Part shown: piece after piece, positions 2,029 to 54,614 of the stretch
How positions within the stretch are numbered: the first letter of the stretch is position 1
How the letters are laid out: each line of letters begins with the position of its first letter
Assembly (NCBI RefSeq): GCF_011045215.1
Contig: NZ_CP049201.1
DNA: 64,000 nt
Strand: one strand, 5' to 3'
From: Escherichia coli
GTDB lineage: Bacteria > Pseudomonadota > Gammaproteobacteria > Enterobacterales > Enterobacteriaceae
Notes under the pieces: model-generated
Database searches by the model: none
What the model saw: the letters and a program-made list of their open reading frames with translations, nothing else
What the model was told of the DNA's origin: nothing
Made by a program: the position numbers and the translations under genes

Positions 2029-2111
<83 letters not shown>

Positions 2112-2124
2112 GATCACAATACAA

Positions 2125-7740: not shown

Positions 7741-7854
7741 GCTGAAACGGATGGCCTGATGTGACGCTGTCTTATCAGACCAACAATTGAACTCTTAAGG
7801 TTCACTTAATCTCTGCCGCGCATACTCTGCTCCAGGTTAACGGAGGAGAGTGCA

Positions 7855-7944
7855 ATGAAAAACCGTGTTTATGAAAGTTTAACTACCGTGTTCAGCGTGC
7901 TGGTGGTCAGCAGCTTTCTTTATATCTGGTTTGCCACGTACTGA
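7855..7944 (+). CDS. pmrR: Small membrane protein PmrR (29 aa)
   Basis: ATG at 7855 preceded by ggaggagag; encodes MKNRVYESLTTVFSVLVVSSFLYIWFATY; its 3' end overlaps the convergent basS 3' end; below the length cut-off of the ORF track. Confidence 0.85.
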   Translation: MKNRVYESLTTVFSVLVVSSFLYIWFATY

Positions 7945-9011
7945 TCTTTCTTCAGCCGTATCCAGGCGCGCGTGCCAGAAGTCTCTTGCCGGTTTTGCAG
8001 GAAAAACTGCCCGTGATGCAACTGTGTAATGCGGCTGACAATACTTAACCCCAGACCAATCCCGCCATAACGGCTGTCCATACGTACAAACGCTTTACTC
8101 AACTCCCCGCATTTACTCTCATCAATACCCGGTCCTTCATCTTCAACGGCCATGACGGCTCCGCCATCTTCTTGCAGCTTAATCATAATGTTGCTGCCTT
8201 GCGGGCTGTAACGATGGGCATTTTCTACCAGATTTCGCAATAACATCCGCAGCAGGGTTGCATCACCCTGAACGGTGATGTCGGCGGCGCTCTCTGGCAA
8301 TAGCAGGGTTTGCTGGCGCTGGTCGAGCATAGTACTGAGTTCGTCATACGAGGGGAGAATGACATCTTCCAGCAGTTTTACATGTTGATAATTACCGGAA
8401 GAAAATGACTGTCCGGCACGCGCCAGTTGCAGCAGCTGGGAGACGCTCTCCATCATCTGATCAAGCCGTGCCACTAACGGTGCTACATCAATGTGATGCG
8501 TTTTCGCCAGCAGTTCCAGATGCAAACGCACCCCCGCCAGTGGCGTTCGCAGTTCGTGCGCGACGTCAGCGGTAAATAACCTTTCGTTATCCAGCGTGCT
8601 GGTCAGGCGACTGACCAGATCGTTCAACGCCGAAACCACCGCTTCGATTTCGAGGGTGGCGCTGTGAATGGCAATGGGCGTTAAGTTGTCGGCGGTGCGC
8701 GCTTCCAGCTCTTTTTGCAGCTCCGCCAGCGGGCGGGTGATGCGGCGTACCGCCTGATAGCAGATAAATAGCGTCAGGCTGACCATAAAGACGCCGGGGA
8801 CAATCAGGCTGGCGACCGCCTCGCGGATCTCACGCATGATGTGGCGATCGTTGTTGCGATTGTCGCGTAGCGCCTGCTCAAACAGCTGAATCTGCTCGGT
8901 ACTTTCATGCCATAGCCAGAAGACGCTGATCAGCTCAAACACCAACAAAATGGCCCCGATGGTCAATATCAGCCGTTGGCGCAGCGATATTGGTCGGCGC
9001 AGAAAACGCAT
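7920..9011 (-). CDS. basS: Sensor histidine kinase BasS (PmrB)
   Basis: Recognised BasS sequence with H-box HELRTPL and ATPase G-boxes; start set at MRFLRR (363 aa), upstream ATG at 9020 is an alternative. Confidence 0.93.
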   Translation of the reverse strand: MRFLRRPISLRQRLILTIGAILLVFELISVFWLWHESTEQIQLFEQALRDNRNNDRHIMREIREAVASLIVPGVFMVSLTLFICYQAVRRITRPLAELQKELEARTADNLTPIAIHSATLEIEAVVSALNDLVSRLTSTLDNERLFTADVAHELRTPLAGVRLHLELLAKTHHIDVAPLVARLDQMMESVSQLLQLARAGQSFSSGNYQHVKLLEDVILPSYDELSTMLDQRQQTLLLPESAADITVQGDATLLRMLLRNLVENAHRYSPQGSNIMIKLQEDGGAVMAVEDEGPGIDESKCGELSKAFVRMDSRYGGIGLGLSIVSRITQLHHGQFFLQNRQETSGTRAWIRLKKDQYVANQI

Positions 9012-25774: not shown

Positions 25775-27402
25775 CTGTTCGACCTCTCCCCGTCCCAGGG
25801 TATCTGGACAAAAAATTGTGTGAAAATCCCGGGTTCCGATTCCACGGCGATGCTGCCGCCGAGATTTTCTACCTGTTGTTTGACAAGTGCTAAACCGACG
25901 CCTCGCTCGCTTCCTTTTGTCGAGACACCTTTGTCAAAAATGTGATCGATTTTGTCGGGTGCGATCCCCGGTCCATCATCGTTAACTTCGCAGTGCAGCC
26001 AGCCGTGACGGTAGTGCAATGTTACGCTAATTTCGCCACCGGGTTCCGGCCCTAATGCTTCCAGCGCGTTTTCTATCAGATTTCCCAATGTGGTAATCAG
26101 CGTCGCGACCTGGTCCTCACTGCCGCTGTCTGGCAGCTGGCTTTCACTGTTTAAAATCAGCGTATGGCCTAAATCGGTCGCGCGGTTAATCTTGCTGATT
26201 AAAAAACCAGCGATAACCGGAGATTTGATCTTACCCAGCAGAGAGCCAATCTCTTCCTGATAGTTATTGGCTGTTTTGAGAATGTAATCTTCCAACTGCT
26301 TATAACTCTTCAGATGCAATAATCCGAGAATCACATGCAATTTATTCATAAATTCGTGGGATCGTTCACGAAGTGCGTCAGCATAGTTGACCAGACCATC
26401 GAGTCGCTGCATCAGTTTACGTACTTCAGTTTTGTCCCTGAAGGTTGAAATGGCACCGATGATAACGCCATTACTGCGCACCGGAACGGTGTTGATCAGT
26501 AATAGCCGATCTTTAATCGTAATCTCTTCGTCGCGGCGCGGGGTACCGTCGCGTAACACTTCCGAGACATCTACCACCTGTGACCACGAGTGGCTGAGCG
26601 TCGACAGTTTCTCATCGTCCTGCGACTTACGGTAATTCAGCAATTCTTGTGCGGCATCGTTGATCAGCGTGACCTCGCCGCGATCGTCCACGGCAACGAC
26701 GCCTTCTTTGATAGACTGCAACATGGCCTGGCGTTGCTCAAACAGCGTGGAGATTTCGTAGGGTTCCAGGCCGAAAAGGATTTTTTTCAGTACTTTAACC
26801 AGAATGCAGGTGCCAATCAGTCCGACCAGCATGCCAAATAATACTGACCAGATAATGCTCCAGCGACTGTCATTGATCTGTTGGGTCACGCGGCTTAACT
26901 CAAGGCCGATCGCCACCACGCCAATTTGTTTATGATTTTCATCATAGATGGGGGTAAATACGCGTAAAGCCTGCGCCAGAAAACCGCGATTGATAGCGAC
27001 ATTTTCTTCGCCCTTCAGCGCTTTAAGGATGTCATCACCTTTAAATGGCTGACCAATACGCTGGGCTTCAGGATGCGAGTAGCGAAGACTTTGCATATCG
27101 GTAACGACAATAAACAGCAGATCGTTGCGTTTGCGCACGGCTTCCGCGATGGCCTGGATGCCGCTCTCCTGCGGTTTTTTCTGCAAGCCCTGACGGATTT
27201 CCGGCGAGTCGGCGAGAGTACGCGCCACTGCCAGTGCCTTGTTGGCTAGCCCGTCTCGCGTCATATCACTGATTTGCGAGAAGTAAATCAGATGCACCAC
27301 CAATAGCACCGAGAACAGTACCGCGCTGACCATTAAGATCACTGTGGTACTCAATTTCATCGGACGTTTGCGTAACATGCGGTAGGGCAATGAATGTCTC
27401 AT
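25771..27402 (-). CDS. dcuS: C4-dicarboxylate sensor histidine kinase DcuS
   Basis: 543-aa ORF with two TM segments, PAS domains and kinase core; overlaps dcuR start. Confidence 0.95.
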   Translation of the reverse strand: MRHSLPYRMLRKRPMKLSTTVILMVSAVLFSVLLVVHLIYFSQISDMTRDGLANKALAVARTLADSPEIRQGLQKKPQESGIQAIAEAVRKRNDLLFIVVTDMQSLRYSHPEAQRIGQPFKGDDILKALKGEENVAINRGFLAQALRVFTPIYDENHKQIGVVAIGLELSRVTQQINDSRWSIIWSVLFGMLVGLIGTCILVKVLKKILFGLEPYEISTLFEQRQAMLQSIKEGVVAVDDRGEVTLINDAAQELLNYRKSQDDEKLSTLSHSWSQVVDVSEVLRDGTPRRDEEITIKDRLLLINTVPVRSNGVIIGAISTFRDKTEVRKLMQRLDGLVNYADALRERSHEFMNKLHVILGLLHLKSYKQLEDYILKTANNYQEEIGSLLGKIKSPVIAGFLISKINRATDLGHTLILNSESQLPDSGSEDQVATLITTLGNLIENALEALGPEPGGEISVTLHYRHGWLHCEVNDDGPGIAPDKIDHIFDKGVSTKGSERGVGLALVKQQVENLGGSIAVESEPGIFTQFFVQIPWDGERSNR

Positions 27403-27582
27403 CAGCTTCCTTGTGTGACAAATTTCTTAAGCATTATCTCTGATGAGGCGGGTAATTCAAAGGGAGTAAGAATGATTGGCTATATAGGGGAAGAGACTCT
27501 GGCAACGGAAACTGCCAGTGCTGTATGAAGATTCCAGGGCTATGCTTATAGTGAAAACCATACTGATGAGAGAGGGAAGGTC

Positions 27583-27813
27583 ATGGATCAGGCGCTACTG
27601 GACGGGGGTTATCGCTGTTATACCGGCGAAAAGATCGATGTCTATTTCAACACTGCGATATGTCCGCATTCTGGCAATTGCGTACGTGGCAACGGCAAGT
27701 TATTTAATCTCAAACGAAAGCCGTGGATCATGCCGGATGAAGTCGACGTTGCCACTGTGGTTAAAGTGATTGATACGTGCCCGAGCGGCGCGCTGAAATA
27801 CCGTCATAAATAA
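27583..27813 (+). CDS. yjdI: YjdI, small cysteine-rich protein
   Basis: 76-aa [41 protein letters not shown]... Confidence 0.85.
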
Positions 27814-27824
27814 GCGAGGGTAAA

Positions 27825-28097
27825 ATGGAAATACGCGAAGGCCACAATAAATTTTACATTAATGATGAACAGGGCAAGCAAATCGCTGAAATTGTCTTTG
27901 TGCCGACCGGAGAGAATTTAGCAATTATCGAACATACCGATGTCGATGAAAGCCTGAAAGGGCAAGGGATTGGTAAACAGCTGGTTGCGAAAGTCGTGGA
28001 AAAAATGCGTCGGGAAAAACGAAAAATTATCCCATTATGTCCATTTGCGAAACACGAATTTGATAAAACGCGGGAGTATGATGATATTCGCAGTTGA
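27825..28097 (+). CDS. yjdJ: YjdJ, GNAT-like acetyltransferase
   Basis: 90-aa ORF with GNAT motif [15 protein letters not shown]. Confidence 0.85.
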
Positions 28098-28323
28098 TGG
28101 GAGAGTACAGATTCACGATATTTTTCATGCTCTCCACGGTGTGATGCAGGAGAGCATCTGAAGGGTAGGGGGATGCACAAAGAATGGGCAGAGAGCGCGT
28201 TTTTTTGTCCCAAGTCATCCCCTTTACTGAGCAAAAAAAAGAATATCTCCTATATGAGAATCATCAATCGGGGTTAATAAGTTTTGCGTCCCCAGAGTGT
28301 TCAATATTGATAGGAGTCATATT

Positions 28324-28620
28324 ATGGAAGGTAAAAACAAGTTCAATACTTATGTTGTTTCTTTTGATTATCCATCATCTTATTCCTCAGTGTTCTTAAG
28401 GTTAAGATCATTGATGTATGATATGAATTTCTCTTCTATCGTGGCTGATGAATATGGGATACCACGACAATTGAATGAAAACTCCTTCGCAATAACGACA
28501 TCGTTAGCCGCAAGTGAAATCGAAGATTTAATCAGGCTTAAATGCTTAGACTTACCGGATATTGACTTTGACCTCAACATTATGACAGTTGATGACTATT
28601 TCCGTCAGTTTTACAAGTAG
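28324..28620 (+). CDS. ghoS: Type V antitoxin GhoS (endoribonuclease that cleaves ghoT mRNA)
   Basis: 98-aa protein from MEGKNKFNTYVVSFDYPSSY...; the track ORF starts 9 codons upstream. Confidence 0.85.
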   Translation: MEGKNKFNTYVVSFDYPSSYSSVFLRLRSLMYDMNFSSIVADEYGIPRQLNENSFAITTSLAASEIEDLIRLKCLDLPDIDFDLNIMTVDDYFRQFYK

Positions 28621-28647
28621 CCAGGAAGGATAAGAAGAACATAAAAA

Positions 28648-28821
28648 ATGGCACTATTCTCTAAAATATTAATTTTTTATGTGATTGGTGTGAACATATC
28701 CTTTGTCATTATCTGGTTTATCTCACATGAGAAAACACATATTCGTTTACTTAGTGCATTCCTGGTCGGAATAACCTGGCCAATGAGTCTGCCTGTGGCA
28801 TTACTTTTTTCTCTCTTTTAG
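28648..28821 (+). CDS. ghoT: Small membrane toxin GhoT (57 aa)
   Basis: ATG 28648 to TAG 28819-28821 encodes MALFSKILIFYVIGVNISFVIIWFISHEKTHIRLLSAFLVGITWPMSLPVALLFSLF; below ORF-track cut-off. Confidence 0.85.
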   Translation: MALFSKILIFYVIGVNISFVIIWFISHEKTHIRLLSAFLVGITWPMSLPVALLFSLF

Positions 28822-28939
28822 GAGCTGTAGTTGAGTGGACCCGCTGGTTATCGTGAAACGAAGCGTCTCTCCTCAAAACTGGATTTGCGGAACGATGAAC
28901 GAAGCAGTCGCCTGACTGCTTCGTTCACTAAAGTGAAAT

Positions 28940-30457
28940 TTATTTCTGTGGGCGCATCGCCGGGAAGAGAATAACGTCGCGAATAGTATGACTGTTTGTA
29001 AACAGCATAATCATTCGGTCGATACCAATACCCAGACCAGCGGTTGGCGGCAGACCATATTCCAGCGCAGTCACGTAATCTTCGTCATAGAACATGGCTT
29101 CGTCGTCACCTGCAGCTTTAGCGTTAACCTGTTCCTGGAAACGTTCAGCCTGATCTTCTGCGTCGTTTAATTCGCTAAAACCATTACCGATTTCACGACC
29201 ACCGATGAAGAATTCAAAACGGTCGGTGATTTCCGGGTTAACATCATTACGGCGTGCCAGCGGTGACACTTCTGCCGGATATTCCGTAATAAAGGTTGGC
29301 TGAATCAGATGTGCTTCTGCCACTTCATCAAAGATCTCCGTGACAATACGTCCCAGCCCCCAGCTTTTCTCTACCGTAATACCGATAGATTCAGCTAATG
29401 CTTTAGCAGCATCAAAATTATCCAGGTCGGCCATATCGGTTTCTGGACGATATTTTTTGATTGCTTCGCGCATGGTGAGTTTTTCAAACGGTTTGCCGAA
29501 ATCAAACACATGCTCGCCATAAGTGACTTTAGTGGTACCCAGAACCTCTTGTGCCAGGGTGCGGAACAGTGACTCTGTCAGTTCAATCAAATCGTGGTAA
29601 TCCGCATACGCCATGTAGAGTTCCATCATTGTGAACTCAGGATTATGGCGAACAGAAATACCTTCATTACGGAAGTTACGGTTGATTTCGAATACCCGTT
29701 CAAAACCGCCTACAACCAGACGTTTCAGATACAGCTCCGGCGCGATACGCAGATACATATCTAAATCCAGAGCATTATGATGGGTAATAAACGGGCGAGC
29801 AGATGCCCCACCTGGAATTACCTGCATCATCGGGGTTTCTACTTCCATAAAGCCGCGCGCGACCATGAACTGACGGATAGCGGCCAGAATTTTTGAACGG
29901 ACAACAAACGTTTGACGGGATTTATCGTTAGCGATGAGGTCCAGATAACGTTGACGATAACGGACTTCCTGATCCTGCAGACCATGGAATTTATCTGGTA
30001 AAGGACGTAGTGCTTTTGTCAGCAGGCGCAGCTCAGTACAGTGAATGGAAAGCTCACCCGTTTGCGTCTTAAACAGCGTACCGCGGGCACCGATAATGTC
30101 ACCCAGATCCCATTTTTTAAACTGATCGTTATAAACACCTTCTGGCAGGCTATCTCGTGCGACGTACAGTTGAATACGGCCACCGACATCCTGCAACGTT
30201 ACAAAGGAGGCTTTCCCCATGATACGACGGGTCATCATTCGGCCAGCAACCGAGACTTCAATGTTTAAGGATTCCAGTTCCTGGTTATCCTTCGCATCAA
30301 ACTCTTCGTGCAACTGGTCAGAGGTATGGTCGCGGCGAAAATCATTGGGAAACGCCACACCTTGCTGACGTAGTGCCGCCAGTTTTTCGCGGCGATTTCT
30401 CAGTTCATCGTTAAAATCAATAGCCTCATTGGCTCCCCGTGTTTCTTGTTCAGACAT
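28940..30457 (-). CDS. lysU: Lysine--tRNA ligase, heat-inducible (LysU)
   Basis: 505-aa class II aaRS starting [15 protein letters not shown]; located beside the cad locus as lysU is (lysS is elsewhere). Confidence 0.93.
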
Positions 30458-30693
30458 TTTGGTTCCTCTAAATCCAGCTTTCAATTTAGCGTAGATAAAG
30501 AGACAGATCGGTACACTGTATTATCTGCCTCGACTATTAGTAACTCAGTTTATCTTATCGAAACTAACGCTTACCTCAAGTTGATATCACTAATAAATAA
30601 CCATCAAAATGGTTTAAATGACTTATTAATATCGATTTGCTAGTGTTATAAACTGAAAGTTAATTTATTCATAACTAATTGTTTTTACGACAG

Positions 30694-32151
30694 TTAATCG
30701 TTGCTCTCCTGTACCATATTCGTCGGCGTGCTAAACAGAAAACGGGTAGCAAAGGCCAATACGACGATGATCGCGACACAAGCCAACGTCCACTCTCCCA
30801 TCTGAGAAAAGAATCGCTGGTAAGCTGCAATTGCCATACCGCTAATTTGCGACTCTGTCGTCTGCTGTGCCACTACGCCTGCCAGCCAGTTGGCGACCGC
30901 GCCTGTTGCCAGCATATAAATCCCGGTTAATACGCCAGACATTTTCAGACGCGTGATTTGCGCAATCGCCACCGGGTCAATAAAGAGTTCGGCAAAGCCC
31001 ATTAGCGCCAGCCCGGATACCATCACGCCCATTGACGCTTGACCGTCAGCCGCTGCATGTCGGGCATCAAATGCCAGCAACATAAAGCCACAAGCCATCA
31101 GCAGTAAGCCAAAGGCAAACTTCAGCCAGACGCGCAATGTTGAGTTGCCGTGGCTTTCTGGCGACGCCAGCCAGGCCAGAACAACCCCAGCGAGCATCAC
31201 CGCAATTGCATTCACCGACTGGAATAGTGCAGTAGGTACTTCAATATTGAATGCCTGACGATTCACAAAGCGATCGATAAACAGACTGATGGTACTGCCG
31301 CCCTGTTGTGCCAGTACCCAGAACAATGTCCCGACAAACATCAACAATACAATTTGCCAAAGAGCACGGCGGTGTTCGGGGAATTTGATCATCATGCGGG
31401 CAATGATTTGTGCGGCAATGAGGCAAACGATCGCCAGCAAATATCCGGACCAGTCGTTCTCCAGCAGCAGGGTAAAAAATACTGGGGCTAAACAGAGCAT
31501 CACCACTAACCAGCTCCATACTGGTAAGGCAAATTTCACGCTAGTGAGCGCTTTTTTATCCATACTACGCGTGGACTGGAAATGACGATGACCGCTTAAG
31601 AAAATCAACAAACCGATAAACATGCCGCCACCCGCAAGGGCAAAGCCAACATGCCATCCATACCACTGAGCAGCCAGGCCGCAGGCGATGGGGGCTGCGA
31701 TAGAACCGATATTGCCCGCAGCATACAGCAGCGAAAAACCGCCATCACGTCGATGATCGTTCTCGTCGTAGAGCTCGCCAAGCAAACAGCTGATGTTTGA
31801 TTTGAATAAACCGTAGCCACAAATAATGATTGCCAGCGCCAGATACAGGCTAAAGGTTGAATTTGTATCAATGCCCAGCACCACATGGCCAAGGGTCATT
31901 AACAGCGCGCCGGCAATCACTGCAGTGCGGTTGCCGAGCAGGCGGTCGGCAAGCCAGCCGCCGAGAATAGGGGTAACGTAAACCAGAGAAGCATATGCGC
32001 TGAACAGGCTGATGGCATGGTTATCATCAAAACCAAGCTGATGGGTGAGATAGAGAATGAGTAAGGCACGCATGCCGTAAAAACTGAAGTACTCCCAGAT
32101 TTGGATCGCCACGATATAGTATATCGCGCGCGGCTGTGAGGGTGTTTTCAT
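30694..32151 (-). CDS. dtpC: Dipeptide/tripeptide permease DtpC (YjdL), POT family
   Basis: 485-aa [38 protein letters not shown]... Confidence 0.94.
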
Positions 32152-42760: not shown

Positions 42761-44128
42761 ATGGCTGAAATGTCTGTTCTCTGTGCATACGAAGCAGAGC
42801 AGGCCGTTCTGGGCGGTCTGATGCTGGAGAATGAACGCTGGGATGAAGTGGTGCTGATGCTGAGTCCTGACGATTTTTATGTGGCTCCGCACCGGGTCAT
42901 TTTTCGTGCCATGTCTGAACTGGCGGTGAATGGCCAGCCTCTGGACCTGATTACACTGTCAGAACTCCTGGAACATCAGGGCAGGCTGGACGTACTGGGC
43001 GGTTTTGCTTATCTGGCAGAGCTCAGCAAGAACACACCTTCTGCGGCCAACATCATGGCCTATGCAGGCATTGTGGTGGAGAAAAGCGTTCTGCGTCAGT
43101 TACAGGCCACCGGAAACACCCTGATTGCTGATGTGGCGGCACCGAACGCCACATCACGGGACGTGCTGGATACTGCAGAGCGGCGTCTGTTTGCTCTTGC
43201 GCAGAACAGGACGCTCCGGGAGCGCACGGAAGCCTCTCTTTCATCCGCGCTCGATACCGTTCTGCAGCAACTGGAAAGTGTGCTCGGTTCCGGCGGTGTG
43301 ACCGGTACCCCCACGGGATTTGACTGTCTGGATGAAATGACCTGTGGCCTGCAGCCAGGTGACCTGGTCCTGCTGGCTGCCCGTCCGTCAATGGGGAAAA
43401 CCTCTCTGGCACTGTCCATGTGTCTCAGTGCCGCCCTGCGGCGGACGGAAGAGAGCGTTCTGGTATTCAGCATCGAGATGCCGAAGGAGCAACTGATTCT
43501 GCGCATGCTTTCCATGCTGGGACGTGTGGAACTGAATCATCTGCGCAGTGGCAACATGGATGATGAGGACTGGACGAGGGTGTCATCTGCGGTTGGCATG
43601 GCGCTGGGTGACGGAGGCATGGATGCGCTGGGTGAGCGCCTGATAATTGATGACTGCAGCCAGCAGACACCGTCATCGCTGCGTGCCAGTGCCCGCCGTT
43701 ATACCCGCCTGTACGGTAAACCCGCTCTGATTATGGTGGATTATCTGCAGCTGATTCGTGCGCCGGAGCTGGAGAACCGCACCCAGGAAATTGCTGAAAT
43801 TTCCCGTTCCCTGAAAGCGCTGGGGAAGGAGCTGGGATGTCCGGTGCTGGCCCTCTCCCAGCTTAATCGTCAGGTGGAACAGCGTGCAGATAAACGCCCC
43901 AATAACGGTGACCTGCGTGATTCCGGGGCACTGGAGCAGGATGCTGACCTGATTATGTTTATTTACCGCGACGAGGTCTATAACCCCGATTCACTGGCAA
44001 AGGGGGAGGCTGAAATTATTGTCAGCAAGCAGCGTCAGGGGCCCACAGGCACGGTGCGGGTCAGGTTCGACGGTCGTTACACACTGTTTACGCCCTCTGA
44101 AAATGACGGACAGGGAGGATATGCGTGA
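42761..44128 (+). CDS. DnaB-family replicative helicase (island-encoded)
   Basis: N-terminal DnaB-like domain and RecA-like domain with Walker A AARPSMGKTSLAL; start ATG 42761 preceded by gggggagggg; track ORF start 42596 is an upstream extension. Confidence 0.85.
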   Translation: MAEMSVLCAYEAEQAVLGGLMLENERWDEVVLMLSPDDFYVAPHRVIFRAMSELAVNGQPLDLITLSELLEHQGRLDVLGGFAYLAELSKNTPSAANIMAYAGIVVEKSVLRQLQATGNTLIADVAAPNATSRDVLDTAERRLFALAQNRTLRERTEASLSSALDTVLQQLESVLGSGGVTGTPTGFDCLDEMTCGLQPGDLVLLAARPSMGKTSLALSMCLSAALRRTEESVLVFSIEMPKEQLILRMLSMLGRVELNHLRSGNMDDEDWTRVSSAVGMALGDGGMDALGERLIIDDCSQQTPSSLRASARRYTRLYGKPALIMVDYLQLIRAPELENRTQEIAEISRSLKALGKELGCPVLALSQLNRQVEQRADKRPNNGDLRDSGALEQDADLIMFIYRDEVYNPDSLAKGEAEIIVSKQRQGPTGTVRVRFDGRYTLFTPSENDGQGGYA

Positions 44129-45804
44129 TGGCACACAAACCACTGAATCTCGGGGCTGCCATTATGCAGCCCGGTCGTCAGGCCAGTGCCGCCGGTAATG
44201 TGGTGGCGCTGGGGGAAACCCCCATGATTCTGACGCTGGACCAGTTGCGTCCGAATCCGGATAACCCGCGCACCACGCGCAATCCGCGTTATGACGACAT
44301 CAAAAACTCCATTCACGCCCGCGGGCTGGATACAGTGCCCAAAGTCACCCGTATGCCGGACAGTGAGCCGGATGTGTATATCTTCAGTGACGGGGGAAAC
44401 ACCCGTTACCAGATACTGACGGAACTCTGGAAAGAAACGGGGGACCCGCGTTTTTACCGTATTCATGTGCTGTTCAAACCCTGGCCGGGACGGCTTCAGT
44501 GTGTGATTGGTCATCTGGCGGAAAATGAAGTTCGCGGTGAACTGACCTTTATTGAGAAGGCACAGGGCATTCACAAGGCAAGACAAATTCATGAGGAACA
44601 ACTCGGCAGAAAAGTTTCCCTTCGTGAACTGGCGGATTTGTTAACCCATGAAGGGTTGCCGGTACACAACTCCACGATCAGCAGAATGGAGGATGCCCTG
44701 AAATATCTGTACCCCTGGATCCCCGACCTGATGGAGTCAGGACTGGGGCGACATCAGATTACGGCACTGCTGGCACTTCGTCAGGACGCAGAGCGTGTCT
44801 GGGGACAGTTTGCGCTGACGTCCGGCACGGACGCGGAATTTGACCGCGTGTTCGGGGAAAGCTGCCGGAAGTTTAATTCGCCGGAGCTGTGGTCACTGGA
44901 GATGTTTCGGGATGAGCTGATTGGAGATTTGTTGCAGGCGCTGCCACATCCCTCCCTGGACTATGACCGGTGGCTGTTGGAGCTGGATCCGAAAGAGCGG
45001 AACCGTCGTCACCATTTTGGTGAGCCGGAACCGGTGGTGGTACCGCCGTCAGTCCGTGACAGTGGCACAGGGCAGTCCGGTGCACCGGTATCCCGTATCC
45101 GGCCGGAGGTACCGGAAATCTCTGCCCCTGATACTGAGCCCGGACAGCATGATGTTGCCCGACCGGAGAACGCTGTTTCTGACACAGGCCTCACTGAAAA
45201 ATGCGGGTTTCCTTCCCCGGAGGAGACTGCAGACAGAGCGCCTTCTTCTGCCGGGAAAGTCCGGCGTTCAGAGATGCAGCCGGATATGTACGGCGGTGAG
45301 CCGGTCTTCAGCGGTGATGCTGTGGACGCGGGGATTGCCGGGGCCGCTGTGCCATCCGTTATGACCGGCGATACAGTGCCGTCCGGAACACCTGATGTAC
45401 TTCCCGTGTCTGTGACGCATTTTGCTGAAGGACGGGATGATATCGAGCATCTGCAGAATGAGGCCTTCCGGCTGGCATGGGAACTGGCTGAATCTGCCGG
45501 CTGTGCTGAAGAAATTGCCATGGACAGAGAAAGTGACCTGTCGGCTGGTTTCGGGACTGCAGAGGAGAAATGTTCGCCGGTGACGGCATTTCTGATGGGG
45601 CTGACCGGCGATGCGCCGCTGACAGTGTCTCCCGTCAGTCTGACAGACCTGCTGACAGGCGGCAGTGCGCCGGAAGCATGGCCACTGCTGGATGATGAAC
45701 ATGCCGTGAAGCTGCTGCGTCTTCTGAGTGTGCTGCGCCGTCTGCGCGCCCTGCAGCGCAGTGTGTTACCCGAAGATGATGAGGAGGATGAAAGTGATGA
45801 GTGA
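44125..45804 (+). CDS. ParB-like nuclease/partition domain protein (559 aa)
   Basis: N-terminal ParB-like region (LTLDQLRPNPDNPR...), long acidic C-terminus; start overlaps the helicase stop. Confidence 0.7.
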   Translation: MMAHKPLNLGAAIMQPGRQASAAGNVVALGETPMILTLDQLRPNPDNPRTTRNPRYDDIKNSIHARGLDTVPKVTRMPDSEPDVYIFSDGGNTRYQILTELWKETGDPRFYRIHVLFKPWPGRLQCVIGHLAENEVRGELTFIEKAQGIHKARQIHEEQLGRKVSLRELADLLTHEGLPVHNSTISRMEDALKYLYPWIPDLMESGLGRHQITALLALRQDAERVWGQFALTSGTDAEFDRVFGESCRKFNSPELWSLEMFRDELIGDLLQALPHPSLDYDRWLLELDPKERNRRHHFGEPEPVVVPPSVRDSGTGQSGAPVSRIRPEVPEISAPDTEPGQHDVARPENAVSDTGLTEKCGFPSPEETADRAPSSAGKVRRSEMQPDMYGGEPVFSGDAVDAGIAGAAVPSVMTGDTVPSGTPDVLPVSVTHFAEGRDDIEHLQNEAFRLAWELAESAGCAEEIAMDRESDLSAGFGTAEEKCSPVTAFLMGLTGDAPLTVSPVSLTDLLTGGSAPEAWPLLDDEHAVKLLRLLSVLRRLRALQRSVLPEDDEEDESDE

Positions 45805-46522
45805 TATGCCGCATCAGGAGCGTCTGGTCAGACGGGTCAGGAAACTGCTGGAGCTGAGTCGCAATAACAGTAATGCCCATGAGGCCGGGCTGGCGCTTGC
45901 AAGGGCGCAACAGCTGATGGCGAAACACGGTATCACGGAGCAGGATGCCGGACTTTCTTCGGTGCAGACGTCTTCATCACAGGGGGCACCTTCTGAGGCT
46001 GAAAAAGTTCCGGCGTGGATGTTTCGTCTGGTCATGGTGGTGTCACAGACATTTGGCTGCAGGGCGTATTACGACTGGCGGTTGATGCCCGGTGGCAGGT
46101 ATCGCCGGTGTGTGACGTTTTACGGTTTCAGTGAACGTCCTCAGGTGGCGGCTTATGCGTTTGATGTTCTGTGCCGCCAGTTGAGGGACGCAACGGATGC
46201 GTATCTCCGTACACAGAGCCGGCGGCTGAAACTGAGCACCCGCCGCGCCCGGGCCGCTCAGTTCCGCGATGGCTGGGTTCAGGGCGTTCGTCAGGTGGTG
46301 ATGCCATTCAGTGTGACAGAAGAGGAAAGCCGGCTGATGCGCCTCTGGCTGGAGCAGCAGGAGATGGAGACGGTGGACCCCCGGGAGGTGAAAGCCTGTC
46401 GCGGCGGTGACCAGGCCCGCTGGCAGGGGTATGAGGCCGGGAAAAATGCCTTACTGCATCATGGTGTGGGGGGAACAGCCCGCCAGATGGTGCCGGGGCT
46501 GATGATACGGGAGGCGTCATGA
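45797..46522 (+). CDS. Hypothetical ICE-associated protein (~241 aa)
   Basis: ORF overlapping the parB-like stop; start ATG 45797 or 45806; no domain recognised with confidence. Confidence 0.5.
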   Translation: MSDMPHQERLVRRVRKLLELSRNNSNAHEAGLALARAQQLMAKHGITEQDAGLSSVQTSSSQGAPSEAEKVPAWMFRLVMVVSQTFGCRAYYDWRLMPGGRYRRCVTFYGFSERPQVAAYAFDVLCRQLRDATDAYLRTQSRRLKLSTRRARAAQFRDGWVQGVRQVVMPFSVTEEESRLMRLWLEQQEMETVDPREVKACRGGDQARWQGYEAGKNALLHHGVGGTARQMVPGLMIREAS

Positions 46523-47097
46523 ATAACAGCTTATCTCAGGCAACCAACGGTCTGCTGATGCAACTGGTGATGGACCTCAGGAGCGGCTATCTGCGTCGCT
46601 GTGAATCTCTGGGACTGGCCCGGGAGGAAATGCAGATGCTGCAGGGACTGACCATTGAGGAAATCCATTACCTGTCTAACTCGGAAGTGTCGGTTATCCG
46701 GCTGGACATTAATCATGAAAACCTGCTGCGAATGCTGCAGCAGGCCCGGACGGAGCAGAAACGTCTGCAGCGCATTGACCGTGCCCTGGCGCTGGGTGGT
46801 TCCATTGAGCTGATGGCGTTTTACTTTGGACTTTCCAGTGTGGATGTTGCGGCGCGCCGGCGCATTGCCGGTATTGATGTTCGTCCGGGACGTGGTGTCA
46901 CGCTGAGCGATGAGGAAAGTGCAGAGCTGTGGCGGTTATGGCAGAAGGCGGGCATCACGGATGTGGAGAGTGCGGACGGACTGGATGTCATGATGCTGGC
47001 TGCGGAGCAGATGAATATCCCGCTGACGGCTATCTGGCATGCAGTAAGGGGTTGGTGCGCTGACCGGCAGACGGAGCCGGTAAGGAATGCGTCATGA
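46519..47097 (+). CDS. Hypothetical ICE-associated protein (192 aa)
   Basis: ORF translationally coupled (4-nt overlap) to the previous gene. Confidence 0.5.
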   Translation: MNNSLSQATNGLLMQLVMDLRSGYLRRCESLGLAREEMQMLQGLTIEEIHYLSNSEVSVIRLDINHENLLRMLQQARTEQKRLQRIDRALALGGSIELMAFYFGLSSVDVAARRRIAGIDVRPGRGVTLSDEESAELWRLWQKAGITDVESADGLDVMMLAAEQMNIPLTAIWHAVRGWCADRQTEPVRNAS

Positions 47098-47342
47098 AAA
47101 TGACAGAGCTGGCACCGGGCATTCTGGCCAGCCCGTGCGTTCCGCCGGCCTGCTGTCGTAAGGCGGTTCAGATGGTCATTCTGTTCCGGCAGGGTGTGCG
47201 TAATTACCGGCAACTGAATGACCGGGGGACCCGTTATTACAAGATAAACGTCGGACGTGCCTGGCGTCTGCTGAGCCGTAACCGGGGAGAGACCTGGGAA
47301 CTGCTCAGTCATGAGCGTTACAACAGCGCCAGACGTAAATGA
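47094..47342 (+). CDS. Hypothetical small protein (82 aa)
   Basis: ORF coupled to the previous gene by a 4-nt overlap. Confidence 0.4.
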   Translation: MKMTELAPGILASPCVPPACCRKAVQMVILFRQGVRNYRQLNDRGTRYYKINVGRAWRLLSRNRGETWELLSHERYNSARRK

Positions 47343-47415
47343 AGCGTGCAGGCCGGACCGGAGTATCGGGGCCGGCCCTGTTGACGACAGGGTATTGCAC
47401 AGGAAATTGATTCCC

Positions 47416-47691
47416 ATGAATGAGCTTAGCTGGAAGGCGTTAAGTAAGGCGGTAAAAAGATATCAGGATGTGCTGTCGTGGAGTCGTTCAGACAGACACA
47501 GTCCGGGCGCTGAGCGGGAATTAGCTGCTGCAGCCGGAAATATCAGGAAGGCCATTGGTGATCAGGAAATTGACGTGATTGTGGAACTGGTGACGGAACT
47601 GGAAGATGCAGAATGGAGAATTACAGTATACGGCACCCTCTTATTATGGACGTGGGCATTAATCGCCCTGTACATCCTGTATTACCGGTGA
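47416..47691 (+). CDS. Hypothetical small protein with C-terminal transmembrane helix (91 aa)
   Basis: ATG 47416 preceded by aggaaa; paralogous in its N-terminal region to the next gene product. Confidence 0.45.
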   Translation: MNELSWKALSKAVKRYQDVLSWSRSDRHSPGAERELAAAAGNIRKAIGDQEIDVIVELVTELEDAEWRITVYGTLLLWTWALIALYILYYR

Positions 47692-47705
47692 ACAGGAGAC
47701 AACCA

Positions 47706-48134
47706 ATGAACAGTATTCATTATCAGGCACTGCGTGAAGTTGCACAAAACTATCAGTCGACGCTGGCGTGGTATCAGGCTATCCCGGATAGCCCAAACGC
47801 TGAGGTTGATTGTGATGAGGCTTTGGCTGCGTTTAAGCGTCAAATCCGTCACAGGGAAGTGGATATTATCGCCGATCTGCTGGATGAACTGGAAGCCGCA
47901 AAAAAGCGTATTGCGGAACTGGAGGAAGAGAAAGAAACGTTGCGTCCGGTTGGTGTTATGAGCAGGAGAGCATTTTGGCGGCTTGAGAATAGAGGACCAC
48001 GATTTATTGCACTCTGGCCCGGACCGGGAATATACCTGCTGCGTAAACGTCCTGATGATGGCGTTATTGTTTACGCCAGAACTGACGCCGGCATTGGCGT
48101 GAAGCAGCAAAATGACGCAGGGATTAAGGATTAA
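47706..48134 (+). CDS. Hypothetical protein, soluble paralog of the preceding gene (142 aa)
   Basis: ATG 47706 preceded by aggag; shares motif IRHREVDIIADLLDELEAA with the upstream paralog (IGDQEIDVIVELVTELEDA). Confidence 0.45.
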   Translation: MNSIHYQALREVAQNYQSTLAWYQAIPDSPNAEVDCDEALAAFKRQIRHREVDIIADLLDELEAAKKRIAELEEEKETLRPVGVMSRRAFWRLENRGPRFIALWPGPGIYLLRKRPDDGVIVYARTDAGIGVKQQNDAGIKD

Positions 48135-48237
48135 TCGAAAGTGTTCAGCCAGCCCCCTGCATCCAGCAGGGGGCTGTAATAAGCATTTTTGTACCGGATA
48201 AAAAGCGGCGATATTGCCGCTACTGAATGAGGTGATT

Positions 48238-49482
48238 ATGGCGTTACCTGCGGAAAGCCTGATTGCGTATACCCTGGAAAAAATGAAGCACCGTATGACC
48301 ACCGGAGCCCGGAAGGAGGAGGGGCGAATACGCAGCGGACTGTTGTTCACCGGCAATGTGCACGATGCCATTCCGCGTCGTCTGTTGCTGGATACGCGTC
48401 TTTCACCGCTGGACAAGATGGCATGGATGATGATCCGGCTGTATGCGCAGAATAATGAGGGGGCCATTTTTCCTACTTACGATGAACTGCAACTGCAGCT
48501 GGCATCGCCGGGAAAGGGAAAAGCTTCCAGAGAAACCGTCAGCCGGGTATTGCTGATGTTGCGGATCACGGGCTGGCTGAGCCTGTGTAAACGGGTACGT
48601 GATGATAAAGGCCGGGTTCGGGGAAACATTTACGCCCAGCATGACGAGCCCCTGACGTTCTGCGATGCAGAGGCGATGGATCCGCGTTATCTGGATATAG
48701 TGGCAGAAGCCTGTATGAGCCGGAACCGGACCATCAGTCAGACGGCACGGGATATTCTTTGTGAAATAAAAAATGATCCGGGAATGCGTCACTATCACAG
48801 CCATATCAGTCAGCTGGAAGCCCGGATAGGAAGTGCCCAGACACCGGGGCAGATGGCTGCCCGTCAGCGGGTGACAGAGGACAGAATGCGGCCGGGTTCG
48901 GAAACCGAACCAGTGGTGAGAACACTGAGTTCGGCACCGGAAAAGCTGAGTTCGGAAACCGAACCGGGTAAAAAAATGGGGCAAAAAAGACAGAGTTCGG
49001 ATCCCGAACCATCAGGAAAATCAGCAGGTTATCACAGAGTCCGGGAACCGAACCATTACGTACGTAATATCACACACAGTGTGATTAAAAACACGTACGT
49101 ACTGCCGGCGTCGCTGACGGGGCAAATCAGGGAGGAAGATGCCATCATGCTGACTAGTCAGTTGCAGGCGTTGCCGGAAGCGCTGGCACAGGGGGTGCTG
49201 GAAAGCCTGTCAGGGATGCTGGGCAGTCAGTCACTGCAGAACCCGGTGGGCTGGCTGCTTGCAGTGCTGAAGCGTGCCCGGGAGGGAAATTTTTATCCAC
49301 CGAAACAGAAACAGCGCGTCGCTGCATCAGCCACCATACAGGCGGGAGCGGGAGGGCGCACCACTTCGCAGCCTGTTGTCACCCGGAAACGTACAGAACC
49401 CATTTCAGCAGAACGTCTGAGTGGCATTGTGGCAGGACTACGGGCCTCCCTTCGCAACCGTCCTGCGATGAGAGCCCGGTGA
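48238..49482 (+). CDS. Island replication-protein-like gene (resembles the SPI-7 STY4528-type family)
   Basis: ATG 48238 preceded by gaggtga; ~414 aa; immediately followed by the iteron array; family assignment from memory, unverified. Confidence 0.6.
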   Translation: MALPAESLIAYTLEKMKHRMTTGARKEEGRIRSGLLFTGNVHDAIPRRLLLDTRLSPLDKMAWMMIRLYAQNNEGAIFPTYDELQLQLASPGKGKASRETVSRVLLMLRITGWLSLCKRVRDDKGRVRGNIYAQHDEPLTFCDAEAMDPRYLDIVAEACMSRNRTISQTARDILCEIKNDPGMRHYHSHISQLEARIGSAQTPGQMAARQRVTEDRMRPGSETEPVVRTLSSAPEKLSSETEPGKKMGQKRQSSDPEPSGKSAGYHRVREPNHYVRNITHSVIKNTYVLPASLTGQIREEDAIMLTSQLQALPEALAQGVLESLSGMLGSQSLQNPVGWLLAVLKRAREGNFYPPKQKQRVAASATIQAGAGGRTTSQPVVTRKRTEPISAERLSGIVAGLRASLRNRPAMRAR

Positions 49483-49506
49483 TGGCGTTGTGATTCACGT
49501 TCACAG

Positions 49507-50076
49507 AGAGCAAAAATCAACCAGTGCTGCCAGTGGCAGCATAGAGCAAAAATTAGCCAGTGCTGCTCGGGGCAGCATAGAGCAAAAATTAGCCAGTGCT
49601 GCCCGGGGCAGCATAGAGCAAAAATCAGCCAGTGCTGCCCGGGGCAGCATAGAGCAAAAATCAGCCAGTGCTGCCCGGAGCAGCATAGAGCAAAAATTAG
49701 CCAGTGCTGCCCGGGGCAGCATAGAGCAAAAATTAAGCAGTGCTGCCCGGGGCAGCATAGAGCAAAAATTAGCCAGTGCTGCCCGGGGCAGCATAGAGCA
49801 AAAATCAGCCAGTGCTGCCCGGGGCAGCATAGAGCAAAAATTAAGCAGTGCTGCCCGGGGCAGCATAGAGCAAAAATTAGCCAGTGCTGCCCGGGGCAGC
49901 ATAGAGCAAAAATCAGCCAGTGCTGCCCGGGGCAGCATAGAGCAAAAATCAGCCAGTACTGCCCGGAGCAGCATAGAGGAAAAATTAGTCAGTGCTGCCC
50001 GGGGCAGCATAGAGCAAAAATTAGGCAGTGCAGCCCGGGACAGCATAGAGTGAAAATTAGCCAGTGCTGCCAGTGT
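49507..50076. repeat. Tandem array of ~15 direct 36-bp repeats, each containing the 17-bp perfect palindrome tgctgcccggggcagca (iteron-like; candidate origin or centromere)
   Basis: Unit agagcaaaaat(t/c)agccagtgctgcccggggcagcat repeated head-to-tail with few substitutions; first and last units degenerate. Confidence 0.9.
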
Positions 50077-50354
50077 CACCAAAGAACAAAAATTATGCTG
50101 CGTCAGCAGCATGGAAGGCGGCGGCACTGAATATCCTGAAACATCTGACGGTAAACCGCCGAAGCCCGGCGTCAGCCGGAAACGTCCTGACAGGATGCAG
50201 TGCTCTCCCCGGCCCTGCCAGACCCTGTTTGTTTCAGGAAAAAGCCTGTGTCACATAAAAGAACCGGAGTACAGAGGTAAAACAGAATACTTGCCGCCGT
50301 TTTTTCCGTCAGTATACTTTTTCGTGCTGAAATTCTGGCTAAGGAAAGATTTTT

Positions 50355-51101
50355 ATGACAAATATTAAAATTCTGGCATTCAGTGTGCTGGCAGCCTTTT
50401 CAGTGGGTGCCGCGCATGCGGAAAGTACGCTGACAGTGGGGGCCGGGGTCGGCGTTGTTGAACAATCCTATAAAGGGTATGACGCAAAGGCTTACCTGAT
50501 CCCTGCGGTTTCTTATGACAGTGATTATTTCTGGTTCCGGGGGCTGGGCGGGGGCTTTTATCTGTGGAATGACAGTGCGGATACGCTTTCTGTGACGGCA
50601 TACTGGGCACCGATGTATTTTAAACCGGATGACAGTAATGACCATCAGTTACGTCTGCTGGATGAGCGTAAAAGCACACTGATGGCGGGGATATCCTGGT
50701 CTCATAATACGCCATATGGTTTCCTGCGCACGGGGCTTGCTGCGGATGTACTGGATAACAGTAATGGTGTTGTTGGTGATGTGGCGTGGTTATACCGTTA
50801 TGTGAATGGTGGATTCACCCTGACACCGGGGATTGGTGTGGAGTGGAGCAGCCAGAAACAGAACGACTATTATTATGGCGTATCGCGTCGTGAATCTGCG
50901 CGCAGCGGTCTGGAGCGGTATAAAGCGGATAATGGCTGGTCACCTTACCTTGAAATCAGTGCAAATTACACCTTTGCCGGCAACTGGGGGATCTACGGAA
51001 CCGCACGTTACAGCCGCTTATCTGATGAAGTTAAAAACTCTCCCATGGTGGATAAGTCATGGGATGGACTGTTTTCCACCGGGATCACTTATCGTTTCTG
51101 A
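50355..51101 (+). CDS. MipA/OmpV-family outer membrane protein
   Basis: Signal peptide MTNIKILAFSVLAAFSVGAAHA, beta-barrel-like alternating pattern, C-terminal ITYRF; promoter-like ttgccg-N16-tatact upstream. Confidence 0.7.
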   Translation: MTNIKILAFSVLAAFSVGAAHAESTLTVGAGVGVVEQSYKGYDAKAYLIPAVSYDSDYFWFRGLGGGFYLWNDSADTLSVTAYWAPMYFKPDDSNDHQLRLLDERKSTLMAGISWSHNTPYGFLRTGLAADVLDNSNGVVGDVAWLYRYVNGGFTLTPGIGVEWSSQKQNDYYYGVSRRESARSGLERYKADNGWSPYLEISANYTFAGNWGIYGTARYSRLSDEVKNSPMVDKSWDGLFSTGITYRF

Positions 51102-51265
51102 TATCGGTATGATCTGATGCTCACCGGTGCCGGATCATGGGCACCGGTGTACTGAACTTCCCTTTCTTCCCCATTTTTCTGTGGCCTGAATCTGGTTTTC
51201 TGTTGTTCCTTCTGCGCTTCGTCCTGACGATCTCACTTTATCCCTGATTGTTATAAGGAACTGAT

Positions 51266-51964
51266 ATGAGTGAAGATAAACTGAACCAGAAAGATGTCCG
51301 GGCCGGCGCATTGCAGTCCTCGCTGTCCATTCTGTTACATACCCATTATGCCATTCGTCTTTGGGAAGGACGTTTACCCGGACGAAAGCCCGGGAATATG
51401 CCCTGGATTATGAGTATGCCGCAGGCAATAAAACGTGCCGGGGGGATTTACCGGGATTCCCTGGCGGATAATCCCTATGCCGATGAAGCGATGTGGAAGG
51501 TGGAAAATGCAATTAATGCTGCCAGTGAAAAAGTACATGCTCTGGTTGGCTGGCTGGAGCAGGTTCTGTGTGCCGTGCCGGCGAATATTACCATGACTGA
51601 TGTTGTATCCCGTTCTCCATTAAATATTGGGGTTTACAGTAGTTCTCCGCTGGGGTATCGCTGTGTCTGGCTGCTTGTGGGATATGATCAGATGGCTCTG
51701 AAAGCGTTTCAGGCATCCCACTTTGGCCTGATTTCCCGGCAGAAACGGGACGAGTTACTCTCACATGGCGGGTATCTTATCCGGAAAATTTACGGCATTT
51801 TAAGGGGTTATTATGCCATCCCTGTCACACGACAGGATCTTGAAGAAAAAACACCGGCGGGAGAACAGGCGATGGCACGCCTGGGGCTCCCTGATGCTGA
51901 GATTATGAATGGGCAGTTGCGATCATCATTTTCTCCTCCGCTGAAGAAAAAGAAGAATAAATAG
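51266..51964 (+). CDS. Hypothetical ICE-associated protein (232 aa)
   Basis: ORF directly upstream of topB. Confidence 0.55.
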   Translation: MSEDKLNQKDVRAGALQSSLSILLHTHYAIRLWEGRLPGRKPGNMPWIMSMPQAIKRAGGIYRDSLADNPYADEAMWKVENAINAASEKVHALVGWLEQVLCAVPANITMTDVVSRSPLNIGVYSSSPLGYRCVWLLVGYDQMALKAFQASHFGLISRQKRDELLSHGGYLIRKIYGILRGYYAIPVTRQDLEEKTPAGEQAMARLGLPDAEIMNGQLRSSFSPPLKKKKNK

Positions 51965-51974
51965 TGGGGGATAA

Positions 51975-53984: not shown

Positions 53985-54220
53985 TCTTAATTTCTCCCTG
54001 TTCAGGATCGGGTAGTGTGGTTAAGCTTTGATGTATACCCCCGTTATCAGCGGGAGGCTGGCTCAACGAAAACACAACGGCGTTCAGTCAGCTACTGATA
54101 CCACAACCGGCCATCGCACATCCTGTCGGGTTGTAAGGCGCATGCCCTCCGTGAAAAACGCGCCGGGATTTATCCCCGGAGACAAGTGAGATAACCACCG
54201 GGCTGGTACCCCCCTGTAAC

Positions 54221-54248
54221 GGCGCTGTATTTGCAGCGCCGTTTTTTA
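54221..54248 (+). terminator. Rho-independent terminator-like hairpin
   Basis: ggcgctg-tatttg-cagcgcc followed by gtttttt. Confidence 0.6.
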
Positions 54249-54614
54249 TTCCGGGTTGACTTTCCATGGATGTGTTTTAAAAATAACCGGGCTTATTTGC
54301 TGCATCTGCAGCCAGCCAATGTTTCAGCAGTCTGAGAGAAACGCCTTCGGGTGACTGCCAGCCAACGTTTCACCGGCCTGAGAGAAACACCTTCGGGTGG
54401 CCGGAATATCCTCGTAGCCTGAAAGAGGATGCCTGTGGGCGGTACATCCGTTTAACCTCTGGAAACGGATATCACTGTTCAGTGATTGAGGTCTTTTTAC
54501 TTCTCAGACAGCCGGAATTCAGCTGATCCGGCATCCCCGACGGGAACATTCACTTCCGTCAGGGATGGTGATGTTCTCCGTCATCACATTTTTTAACTCC
54601 ATGGAGAAATCATC

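What the first reader, a model, noticed from the sequence alone, without database searches (positions are those of the whole stretch)
28324..28821. ghoS-ghoT type V toxin-antitoxin pair intact in the core region
Both genes are intact (GhoS 98 aa, GhoT 57 aa with its hydrophobic helices), followed by a hairpin (gaacgaagcagtc...gactgcttcgttc) shared with the convergent lysU. This is a known system, noted because ghoT is missed by length-filtered ORF calling.
Basis: established knowledge. Interest (0 to 1): 0.2.

Follow-up and report, generated by a model that had tools for sequence, protein, structure and literature searches.

The report
Ordinary intact E. coli ghoS-ghoT pair
This is the well-known E. 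coli ghoS-ghoT toxin-antitoxin gene pair, intact, encoding the same two proteins as the K-12 reference and present in about 97% of complete E. coli genomes, so it is ordinary.

Summary
ghoS (28324..28620, 98 aa) and ghoT (28648..28821, 57 aa) lie on the + strand, 27 nt apart. Gene order is the K-12 order: dcuS, yjdI, yjdJ, ghoS, ghoT, then convergent lysU, dtpC and cadA. Both proteins are 100% identical to K-12 b4128 and b4559. ghoS has four synonymous base changes; ghoT and the spacer have none. GhoS matches PDB 2LLZ at 98 of 98 residues. Pfam gives PF11080 (6e-41) and PF10753 (9e-26). The pair occurs in 5272 of 5426 complete E. coli genomes, on no genuine plasmid and in no phage record.

The quoted hairpin is real: 28896..28927, a 14-bp stem with a GCCT loop, about -24 kcal/mol, and its 13-bp core is invariant in seven strains compared. 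It lies 12 nt past the lysU stop and 74 nt past the ghoT stop. It has no U-tract on either strand, so "shared terminator" is plausible but not shown.

Features tied to the published mechanism are present: GhoS R28, GhoT F38 and two hydrophobic helices, and three MqsR GCU sites in ghoS against none in ghoT.

Verdict: already known, low interest. In passing, an SPI-7-type integrative conjugative element (ICE) is inserted in the tRNA-Phe gene pheU from 38341 to the window end.

The parts
28098..28323 (+). yjdJ-ghoS intergenic region (226 nt). It presumably holds the ghoST promoter and 5' UTR. A Shine-Dalgarno AGGAG lies at 28312..28316, 7 nt before the ATG.
   Evidence: Sequence. There are 6 substitutions versus K-12. 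No significant overall fold (z -0.67). The only + strand promoter-like match is at 28060..28088 inside the end of yjdJ, and the region's match count is no more than shuffles give. The promoter is not mapped here.
28324..28620 (+). ghoS (yjdK), 98 aa, type V antitoxin: a Cas2-like endoribonuclease
   Evidence: Protein identical to K-12 b4128. PDB 2LLZ matches 98/98, E 8e-62. Pfam PF11080, 6e-41. R28, L25 and M31 are present (sequence; residue roles from PMC4010927). GCU sites at 28444, 28536 and 28544.
28621..28647 (+). 27-nt ghoS-ghoT spacer, A/G-rich (ccaggaaggataagaagaacataaaaa)
   Evidence: Identical to K-12; sequence.
28648..28821 (+). ghoT (yjdO), 57 aa, small hydrophobic membrane toxin
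   Evidence: DNA and protein identical to K-12 b4559. Pfam PF10753 Toxin_GhoT_OrtT, 9e-26. Two hydrophobic segments (about residues 1-26 and 34-57) are separated by polar SHEKTHIR; GRAVY is 1.5. F38 and I21 are present and there is no GCU site.
28896..28927 (.). Perfect 14-bp hairpin with a GCCT loop between the convergent ghoT and lysU genes
   Evidence: Fold energies -23.6 and -25.1 kcal/mol, z about -7. Unique in the window. The 13-bp core is invariant in 7 E. coli strains. No U-tract, and not called by the terminator scan.
28940..30457 (-). lysU (inducible lysyl-tRNA synthetase), the convergent neighbour. This is context, not part of the toxin-antitoxin system.
   Evidence: Syntenic with K-12 b4129, 10 substitutions in 1518 nt.

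Best explanation
The region is the chromosomal ghoST operon of Escherichia coli, the founding type V toxin-antitoxin system, intact and with both proteins identical to the K-12 reference. ghoS and ghoT are adjacent on the same strand, antitoxin first. GhoT is a 57-aa peptide with two helices that inserts into the inner membrane, dissipates the membrane potential, lowers ATP and, when overproduced, gives lysed 'ghost' cells or persisters. GhoS does not bind GhoT and is not labile. It is a Cas2-like endoribonuclease that cleaves ghoT mRNA in A/U-rich stretches, so the toxin is not made. Under stress the type II toxin MqsR, a GCU-specific RNase, degrades the ghoS part of the transcript, which has three GCU sites. 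The ghoT part has none and is spared, so GhoT is then made. Shown here: intactness, identity to the experimentally studied proteins, family membership, gene order, the GCU asymmetry, and species-wide conservation. Inferred from published K-12 work on identical sequences: RNase activity, membrane damage and the MqsR cascade. The downstream hairpin most likely ends or stabilises the lysU transcript, and possibly the ghoST transcript too. That is inference.
For:: gap-free alignment to K-12 with 4 synonymous changes in ghoS, 0 in ghoT and 0 in the spacer; GhoS and GhoT translations are identical. GhoS equals PDB 2LLZ (YjdK) over 98/98 residues. PF11080 GhoS at 138.8 bits against a cut-off of 21, and PF10753 Toxin_GhoT_OrtT at 90.4 bits against 22.1. 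RefSeq annotates the same DNA as ghoS/ghoT; the same neighbours as K-12 (dcuS, yjdI, yjdJ, ghoS, ghoT, lysU, dtpC, cadA); at least 80% of the pair is present in 5272 of 5426 complete genomes; 3 GCU in ghoS and 0 in ghoT; F38 and I21 present; two hydrophobic segments. Literature: PMC3997798 for GhoS being not labile, cleaving ghoT mRNA in A/U-rich regions, and MqsR degrading ghoS mRNA. PMC3905216 for ghoT mRNA lacking GCU. PMC4010927 for R28 as the key catalytic residue and the Cas2 homology. PMC4344625 for the two transmembrane helices and for F38R abolishing toxicity.
Against: No expression or activity was measured for this strain. The absence of GCU from the 174-nt ghoT CDS is weak on its own, because 10% of composition-matched shuffles also have none. 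The mqsRA locus is not in the window, so the upstream arm of the cascade cannot be confirmed for this genome. No promoter was mapped: the one + strand consensus match is inside yjdJ, and the region's match count is at the level of shuffles. The original papers (Wang 2012, Wang 2013) were not in the held library, so mechanistic statements rest on secondary accounts and on later papers from the same group.
Confidence: 0.95

Rival explanations
1. The two genes are intact, but in the cell they do not behave as a toxin-antitoxin switch. On this view GhoT toxicity is an overexpression effect of a small hydrophobic membrane peptide, and GhoS is mainly an RNase that tunes other transcripts, about 20 of them in purine and pyrimidine metabolism.
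For: GhoS overproduction lowers about 20 other transcripts (PMC4010927; PMC3997798). The pair is a fixed, non-mobile core locus in about 97% of genomes, with no copy on a genuine plasmid or in a phage. It matches nothing in PADLOC. This is unlike typical addiction or defence modules.
Against: Published K-12 experiments on identical sequences report ghost cells, lower ATP, loss of toxicity with F38R, and specific cleavage of ghoT mRNA by GhoS. Nothing in the sequence argues against that mechanism.
Confidence: 0.1
2. The hairpin at 28896..28927 belongs to lysU alone, as its 3'-end terminator or stabiliser. On this view ghoST transcription ends elsewhere or reads into the antisense strand of lysU, so the hairpin is not 'shared'.
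For: The hairpin starts 12 nt after the lysU stop but 74 nt after the ghoT stop. A second, weaker structure at 28831..28876 lies nearer ghoT. There is no U-tract after the stem on the + strand.
Against: A perfect palindrome forms the same stem in both transcripts: -23.6 kcal/mol on the + strand and -25.1 kcal/mol on the - strand. The - strand also lacks a U-tract, so the sequence does not favour either direction. The weaker structure is not significant on the + strand (z -1.55).
Confidence: 0.4
3. The pair is decayed or disrupted in this strain, that is, a pseudogene or a divergent allele.
For: None. The full 861-nt query is only 95-99% identical to most genomes, which might have hinted at a divergent allele.
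Against: The differences are confined to synonymous sites and flanking spacers. The proteins are identical to K-12 and to the RefSeq entries WP_000398619.1 and WP_001173343.1 annotated on 100%-identical DNA.
Confidence: 0.01

Closest known systems
GhoT/GhoS type V toxin-antitoxin system of E. coli K-12 (b4559/b4128; Wang et al. 2012, Nat Chem Biol 8:855, cited through)
   Same: Everything that could be tested is the same: identical proteins, identical 27-nt spacer, identical gene order and neighbours, the same downstream hairpin core, and the same GCU asymmetry.
   Different: Only 4 synonymous substitutions in ghoS, 6 substitutions in the upstream spacer, and 1 substitution next to the hairpin. 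That last one, 28928 C versus T in K-12, costs one extra closing A-U pair on the + strand.
OrtT (YdcX), the orphan GhoT homologue of E. coli (PMC4344625)
   Same: Same Pfam family, PF10753 Toxin_GhoT_OrtT. Also a 57-aa two-helix membrane toxin with conserved F38.
   Different: OrtT has no adjacent antitoxin, is not controlled by GhoS, and its mRNA carries two GCU sites. The gene here sits directly after ghoS and has no GCU, so it is GhoT and not OrtT.
Cas2 (CRISPR-associated endoribonuclease)
   Same: GhoS has a ferredoxin-like fold and conserved catalytic residues shared with Cas2 (literature).
   Different: No CRISPR array or cas genes lie nearby (annotation). GhoS is a stand-alone antitoxin. 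The fold comparison was not rerun here.

Membership tests
GhoS endoribonuclease antitoxin (Pfam PF11080) | Sequence match to the family profile above the curated cut-off | tested here: met
   138.8 bits against a cut-off of 21, E 6.1e-41, covering profile positions 6-93 of 94.
GhoS endoribonuclease antitoxin (Pfam PF11080) | Identity to the experimentally characterised protein (K-12 YjdK/GhoS, PDB 2LLZ), including catalytic R28 | tested here: met
   98/98 identical to 2LLZ and to b4128. R28 is present in the translation. The role of R28 is from PMC4010927.
GhoS endoribonuclease antitoxin (Pfam PF11080) | Sequence-specific cleavage of ghoT mRNA | not testable with these tools
   This needs an in vitro RNase assay or in vivo transcript mapping. 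It is inferred from identity to the K-12 protein and mRNA.
GhoT/OrtT membrane toxin (Pfam PF10753) | Sequence match to the family profile above the curated cut-off | tested here: met
   90.4 bits against a cut-off of 22.1, E 8.9e-26, covering the full 55-position profile.
GhoT/OrtT membrane toxin (Pfam PF10753) | Small peptide of about 57 aa with two hydrophobic transmembrane helices and F38 | tested here: met
   57 aa with GRAVY 1.5. Hydropathy maxima fall over residues 1-26 and 34-57, with a polar turn SHEKTHIR. F38 and I21 are present. Helix ranges and the F38R result are from PMC4344625.
Type V toxin-antitoxin system (GhoTS) | Adjacent, co-oriented antitoxin and toxin genes, with ghoS upstream of ghoT | tested here: met
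   ghoS 28324..28620 and ghoT 28648..28821, both on the + strand with a 27-nt spacer. The arrangement is the same as in K-12.
Type V toxin-antitoxin system (GhoTS) | The protein antitoxin acts on the toxin's mRNA, not on the toxin protein, and is not labile | not testable with these tools
   Literature only (PMC3997798; PMC3905216).
MqsR-controlled cascade (Wang et al. 2013) | GCU (MqsR) sites present in ghoS mRNA and absent from ghoT mRNA | tested here: met
   GCU at 28444, 28536 and 28544 in ghoS; none in the spacer or in ghoT. Absence by chance occurs in 9.7% of shuffles, so this is consistent but weak on its own.
MqsR-controlled cascade (Wang et al. 2013) | The mqsRA locus is present in the same genome | not tested
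   mqsRA is not in the region annotated through GF3-3 and A41. The genome outside the window is not available.
Intrinsic (Rho-independent) terminator, bidirectional | G+C-rich stem-loop followed directly by a U-tract, on each strand | tested here: not met
   The stem is present, but the 3' tails are CUAAAGUGAAAUUUAUUU on the + strand and UCGUUCCGCAAAUCC on the - strand. The scan finds 0 terminator-like sites in 27300..29200. The hairpin may still act as a 3'-end or stability element.

The most novel reading that the evidence does not exclude
The most novel reading not excluded is that the conserved, U-tract-less palindrome between ghoT and lysU is a functional bidirectional 3'-end element. It would couple the two convergent transcripts, for example if induced lysU read-through made antisense RNA over ghoT, or the reverse. 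That would add a layer of toxin control beyond GhoS and MqsR. Nothing here supports this beyond the position and invariance of the hairpin.
Probability: 0.07. Interest if true: 0.3.

Novelty: already known. Interest (0 to 1): 0.05.

Why it matters
It matters little as a discovery. It confirms that this strain carries a reference-identical copy of a textbook toxin-antitoxin system at its usual chromosomal site. The practical point is about annotation: a 57-aa toxin gene falls below common ORF length filters, so pipelines with such filters would report ghoS without its toxin partner. The locus also serves as a marker of the conserved chromosomal backbone in a window whose last 25 kb is a rare mobile element.

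Tried and rejected
- **Rfam.** I scanned the whole window at gathering score and 27300..29300 at E up to 1. No RNA family falls in or next to ghoST; the only local match (E 0.47, a plant-virus pseudoknot) is chance.
- **Promoters and terminators.** The scan finds no terminator and no convincing ghoST promoter.
- **Upstream spacer fold.** Folding the 226-nt spacer gives z -0.67, so there is no structured leader to report.
- **NCBIfam and PADLOC.** Neither has a model matching GhoS or GhoT. That is a gap in those libraries, not evidence against the assignment.
- **Mobility.** tblastn of GhoS gives no phage hit. It gives 9 'plasmid' records of 94 kb to 4.9 Mb, all E. coli and all non-mobilizable. 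The megabase-size records are clearly chromosomes and the rest look like chromosome segments filed as plasmids, though none was inspected.
- **Covariation in the hairpin.** An alignment of seven strains shows the core is invariant, so it says nothing either way.
- **Primary papers.** Wang 2012 and Wang 2013 were not held in the library.
- **Large database scans.** I did not run the homologue, metagenome or genome-contig scans. The identification was already unambiguous and the cost was not justified.

Full report
**Observation.** The sequence at 28324..28821 holds two uninterrupted + strand ORFs. One runs from ATG 28324 to a stop ending at 28620 (98 aa). The other runs from ATG 28648 to a stop ending at 28821 (57 aa). 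They are 27 nt apart. An AGGAG lies 7 nt before the first ATG.

Its arms are at 28897..28909 and 28914..28926 around a GCCT loop, and the stem extends to 14 bp (28896..28927). The pattern is unique in the window, with zero expected by chance. The isolated element folds at -23.6 kcal/mol on the + strand and -25.1 kcal/mol on the - strand, z about -7.

**Identity.** A gap-free alignment of window 27400..30700 to K-12 MG1655 (locus L001) gives 36 substitutions in 3.3 kb:

| Segment | Substitutions vs K-12 |
|---|---|
| ghoS | 4, all synonymous |
| 27-nt spacer | 0 |
| ghoT | 0 |
| 118-nt ghoT-lysU spacer | 1 |
| lysU | 10 |

- The GhoS and GhoT translations equal b4128 and b4559 exactly.
- GhoS matches the sequence of the solved structure 2LLZ ('yjdK') at 98 of 98 residues, E 8e-62.
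- Pfam assigns PF11080 GhoS (138.8 bits, cut-off 21) and PF10753 Toxin_GhoT_OrtT (90.4 bits, cut-off 22.1).
- DNA 100% identical to the window is annotated in RefSeq as ghoS, ghoT and a lysine--tRNA ligase.
- The gene order is that of K-12: dcuS, yjdI, yjdJ, ghoS, ghoT, then convergent lysU, dtpC and cadA.

**Distribution.**
- The 498-nt pair is found in 5318 of 5426 complete E. coli genomes, and in 5272 at 80% coverage or more, almost always once per genome.
- tblastn of GhoS finds no phage copy.
- It finds nine 'plasmid' records of 94 kb to 4.9 Mb, all non-mobilizable. The megabase-size records are clearly chromosomes and the rest look like chromosomal segments filed as plasmids; none was inspected.
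- Its G+C content is 34-35%, against about 46-54% for the flanks. That fits an old foreign origin, but I did not pursue it.

**Mechanism.** Because the proteins are identical and the operon DNA differs only at four synonymous ghoS sites, the published K-12 mechanism applies by inference.
- GhoT is a two-helix inner-membrane peptide that damages the membrane and lowers ATP. F38R abolishes its toxicity (PMC4344625).
- GhoS is a Cas2-like endoribonuclease with R28 as the key residue (PMC4010927).
- GhoS is not labile, and it cleaves ghoT mRNA in A/U-rich regions (PMC3997798).
- MqsR, a GCU-specific RNase, preferentially destroys ghoS mRNA and so releases GhoT synthesis.

The sequence features these accounts depend on are all present here:
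- R28, L25 and M31 in GhoS.
- F38, I21 and two hydrophobic segments separated by SHEKTHIR in GhoT.
- Three GCU sites in ghoS (28444, 28536, 28544) and none in the spacer or in ghoT.

The GCU absence alone is weak, because 9.7% of composition-matched shuffles also have none. Activity, expression and the presence of mqsRA in this genome were not tested and could not be.

**The hairpin.**
- It begins 12 nt after the lysU stop (28940) and 74 nt after the ghoT stop.
- Neither strand has a U-tract after the stem, and the terminator scan reports nothing in 27300..29200.
- The 13-bp core is invariant in seven strains, including K-12, an O25b:H4 strain and an ETEC strain. Variation occurs only at the closing pair and just 3' of the stem. 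There is therefore no covariation to weigh.
- As a perfect palindrome it forms in both transcripts, so a shared 3'-end or stability element is plausible. Its position fits lysU at least as well as ghoT.
- I rate 'shared' as unproven.
- In strain 102651 an IS1 sits 13 nt after the ghoT stop, and the spacer beyond ghoT, hairpin included, no longer matches; lysU is no longer the adjacent gene. ghoST is still annotated as intact there, so the pair does not need this hairpin to remain intact.

**Other checks.** No Rfam family falls in or near the locus. The upstream spacer has no significant fold. NCBIfam and PADLOC have no model for either protein. A literature search from 2019 on turned up nothing that revises the picture.

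**Verdict.** This is an already known system in its reference state, and interest is very low.

**Outside the finding.** The window stops being collinear with an ordinary chromosome at 38340, inside the tRNA-Phe gene pheU. ARAGORN finds no intact tRNA in the window. From 38341 to the window end lies an SPI-7-type integrative conjugative element (ICE). It carries ParA, DnaB-PI, ParB, an STY4528-family replication protein, topoisomerase III, STAXI RNA, Ssb, Rpn and PilL. Only 5 of 5426 genomes match it at 80% coverage or more. It includes four ORFs at 39897..42413 that have no Pfam or PADLOC match.

Noticed in passing
window 38341..64000 (runs off the window end); tRNA fragment at 38292..38340: An SPI-7/PAPI-1-type integrative conjugative element (ICE) is inserted in pheU (tRNA-Phe). 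Only the 3' 49 nt of the tRNA remain at the junction, and ARAGORN finds no tRNA in the window. Genes include ParA 38422-39315, dnaB-PI 42596-44128, ParB 44125-45804, an STY4528-family replication protein 48214-49482, topoisomerase III 51975-53984, ssb 55380-55913 and Rpn 55962-56894, followed by PilL and ICE proteins. Only 5 of 5426 complete E. coli genomes cover at least 80% of 38200-63000.
   Followed up: partly
window 39897..42413 (+): Four consecutive or overlapping ORFs (250, 171, 221 and 245 aa) lie between the ICE's ParA and dnaB-PI. They have no Pfam or PADLOC match. This stretch of the window appears not to be matched by E. coli A41's related element, inferred from coordinates and 80% query coverage, not aligned. 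They are possibly unknown cargo.
   Followed up: partly
window 54298..54448 (+): STAXI RNA (RF01728, 135 bits) lies between the topoisomerase III and ssb genes of the ICE, the usual context for this motif.
   Followed up: no
window 61592..63259 (+): A 555-aa ORF with an rve integrase core and a Mu-transposase C-terminal domain lies inside the ICE. It is probably a transposon or IS insertion.
   Followed up: no
window 7786..7951 (+) and 2031..2107 (-): The sRNA STnc630 (RF02052, 169 bits) and naRNA4/CssrE (RF02564, 104 bits, a REP-derived element) are present. Near 2030..2113 the window lacks about 420 bp that strain GF3-3 has.
   Followed up: no
window about 37935..38094 (-): By collinearity with GF3-3 and A41, a frameshifted tyrosine-recombinase pseudogene remnant lies between cadC and the pheU fragment. 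This suggests an older integration event at the same tRNA site.
   Followed up: no
window 28150..28900: ghoST and its flanking spacers have 34-39% G+C, against about 46-54% in neighbouring genes. This forms a small low-GC islet inside the core chromosome.
   Followed up: partly
L011 (E. coli 102651) 2546..3243; H60 (E. coli ET220): These are variants in other strains. In 102651 an IS1 sits 13 nt after the ghoT stop, the match ends at the ghoT stop and lysU is no longer adjacent, yet ghoST stays intact. In ET220 only the first 50 nt of ghoS match.
   Followed up: partly
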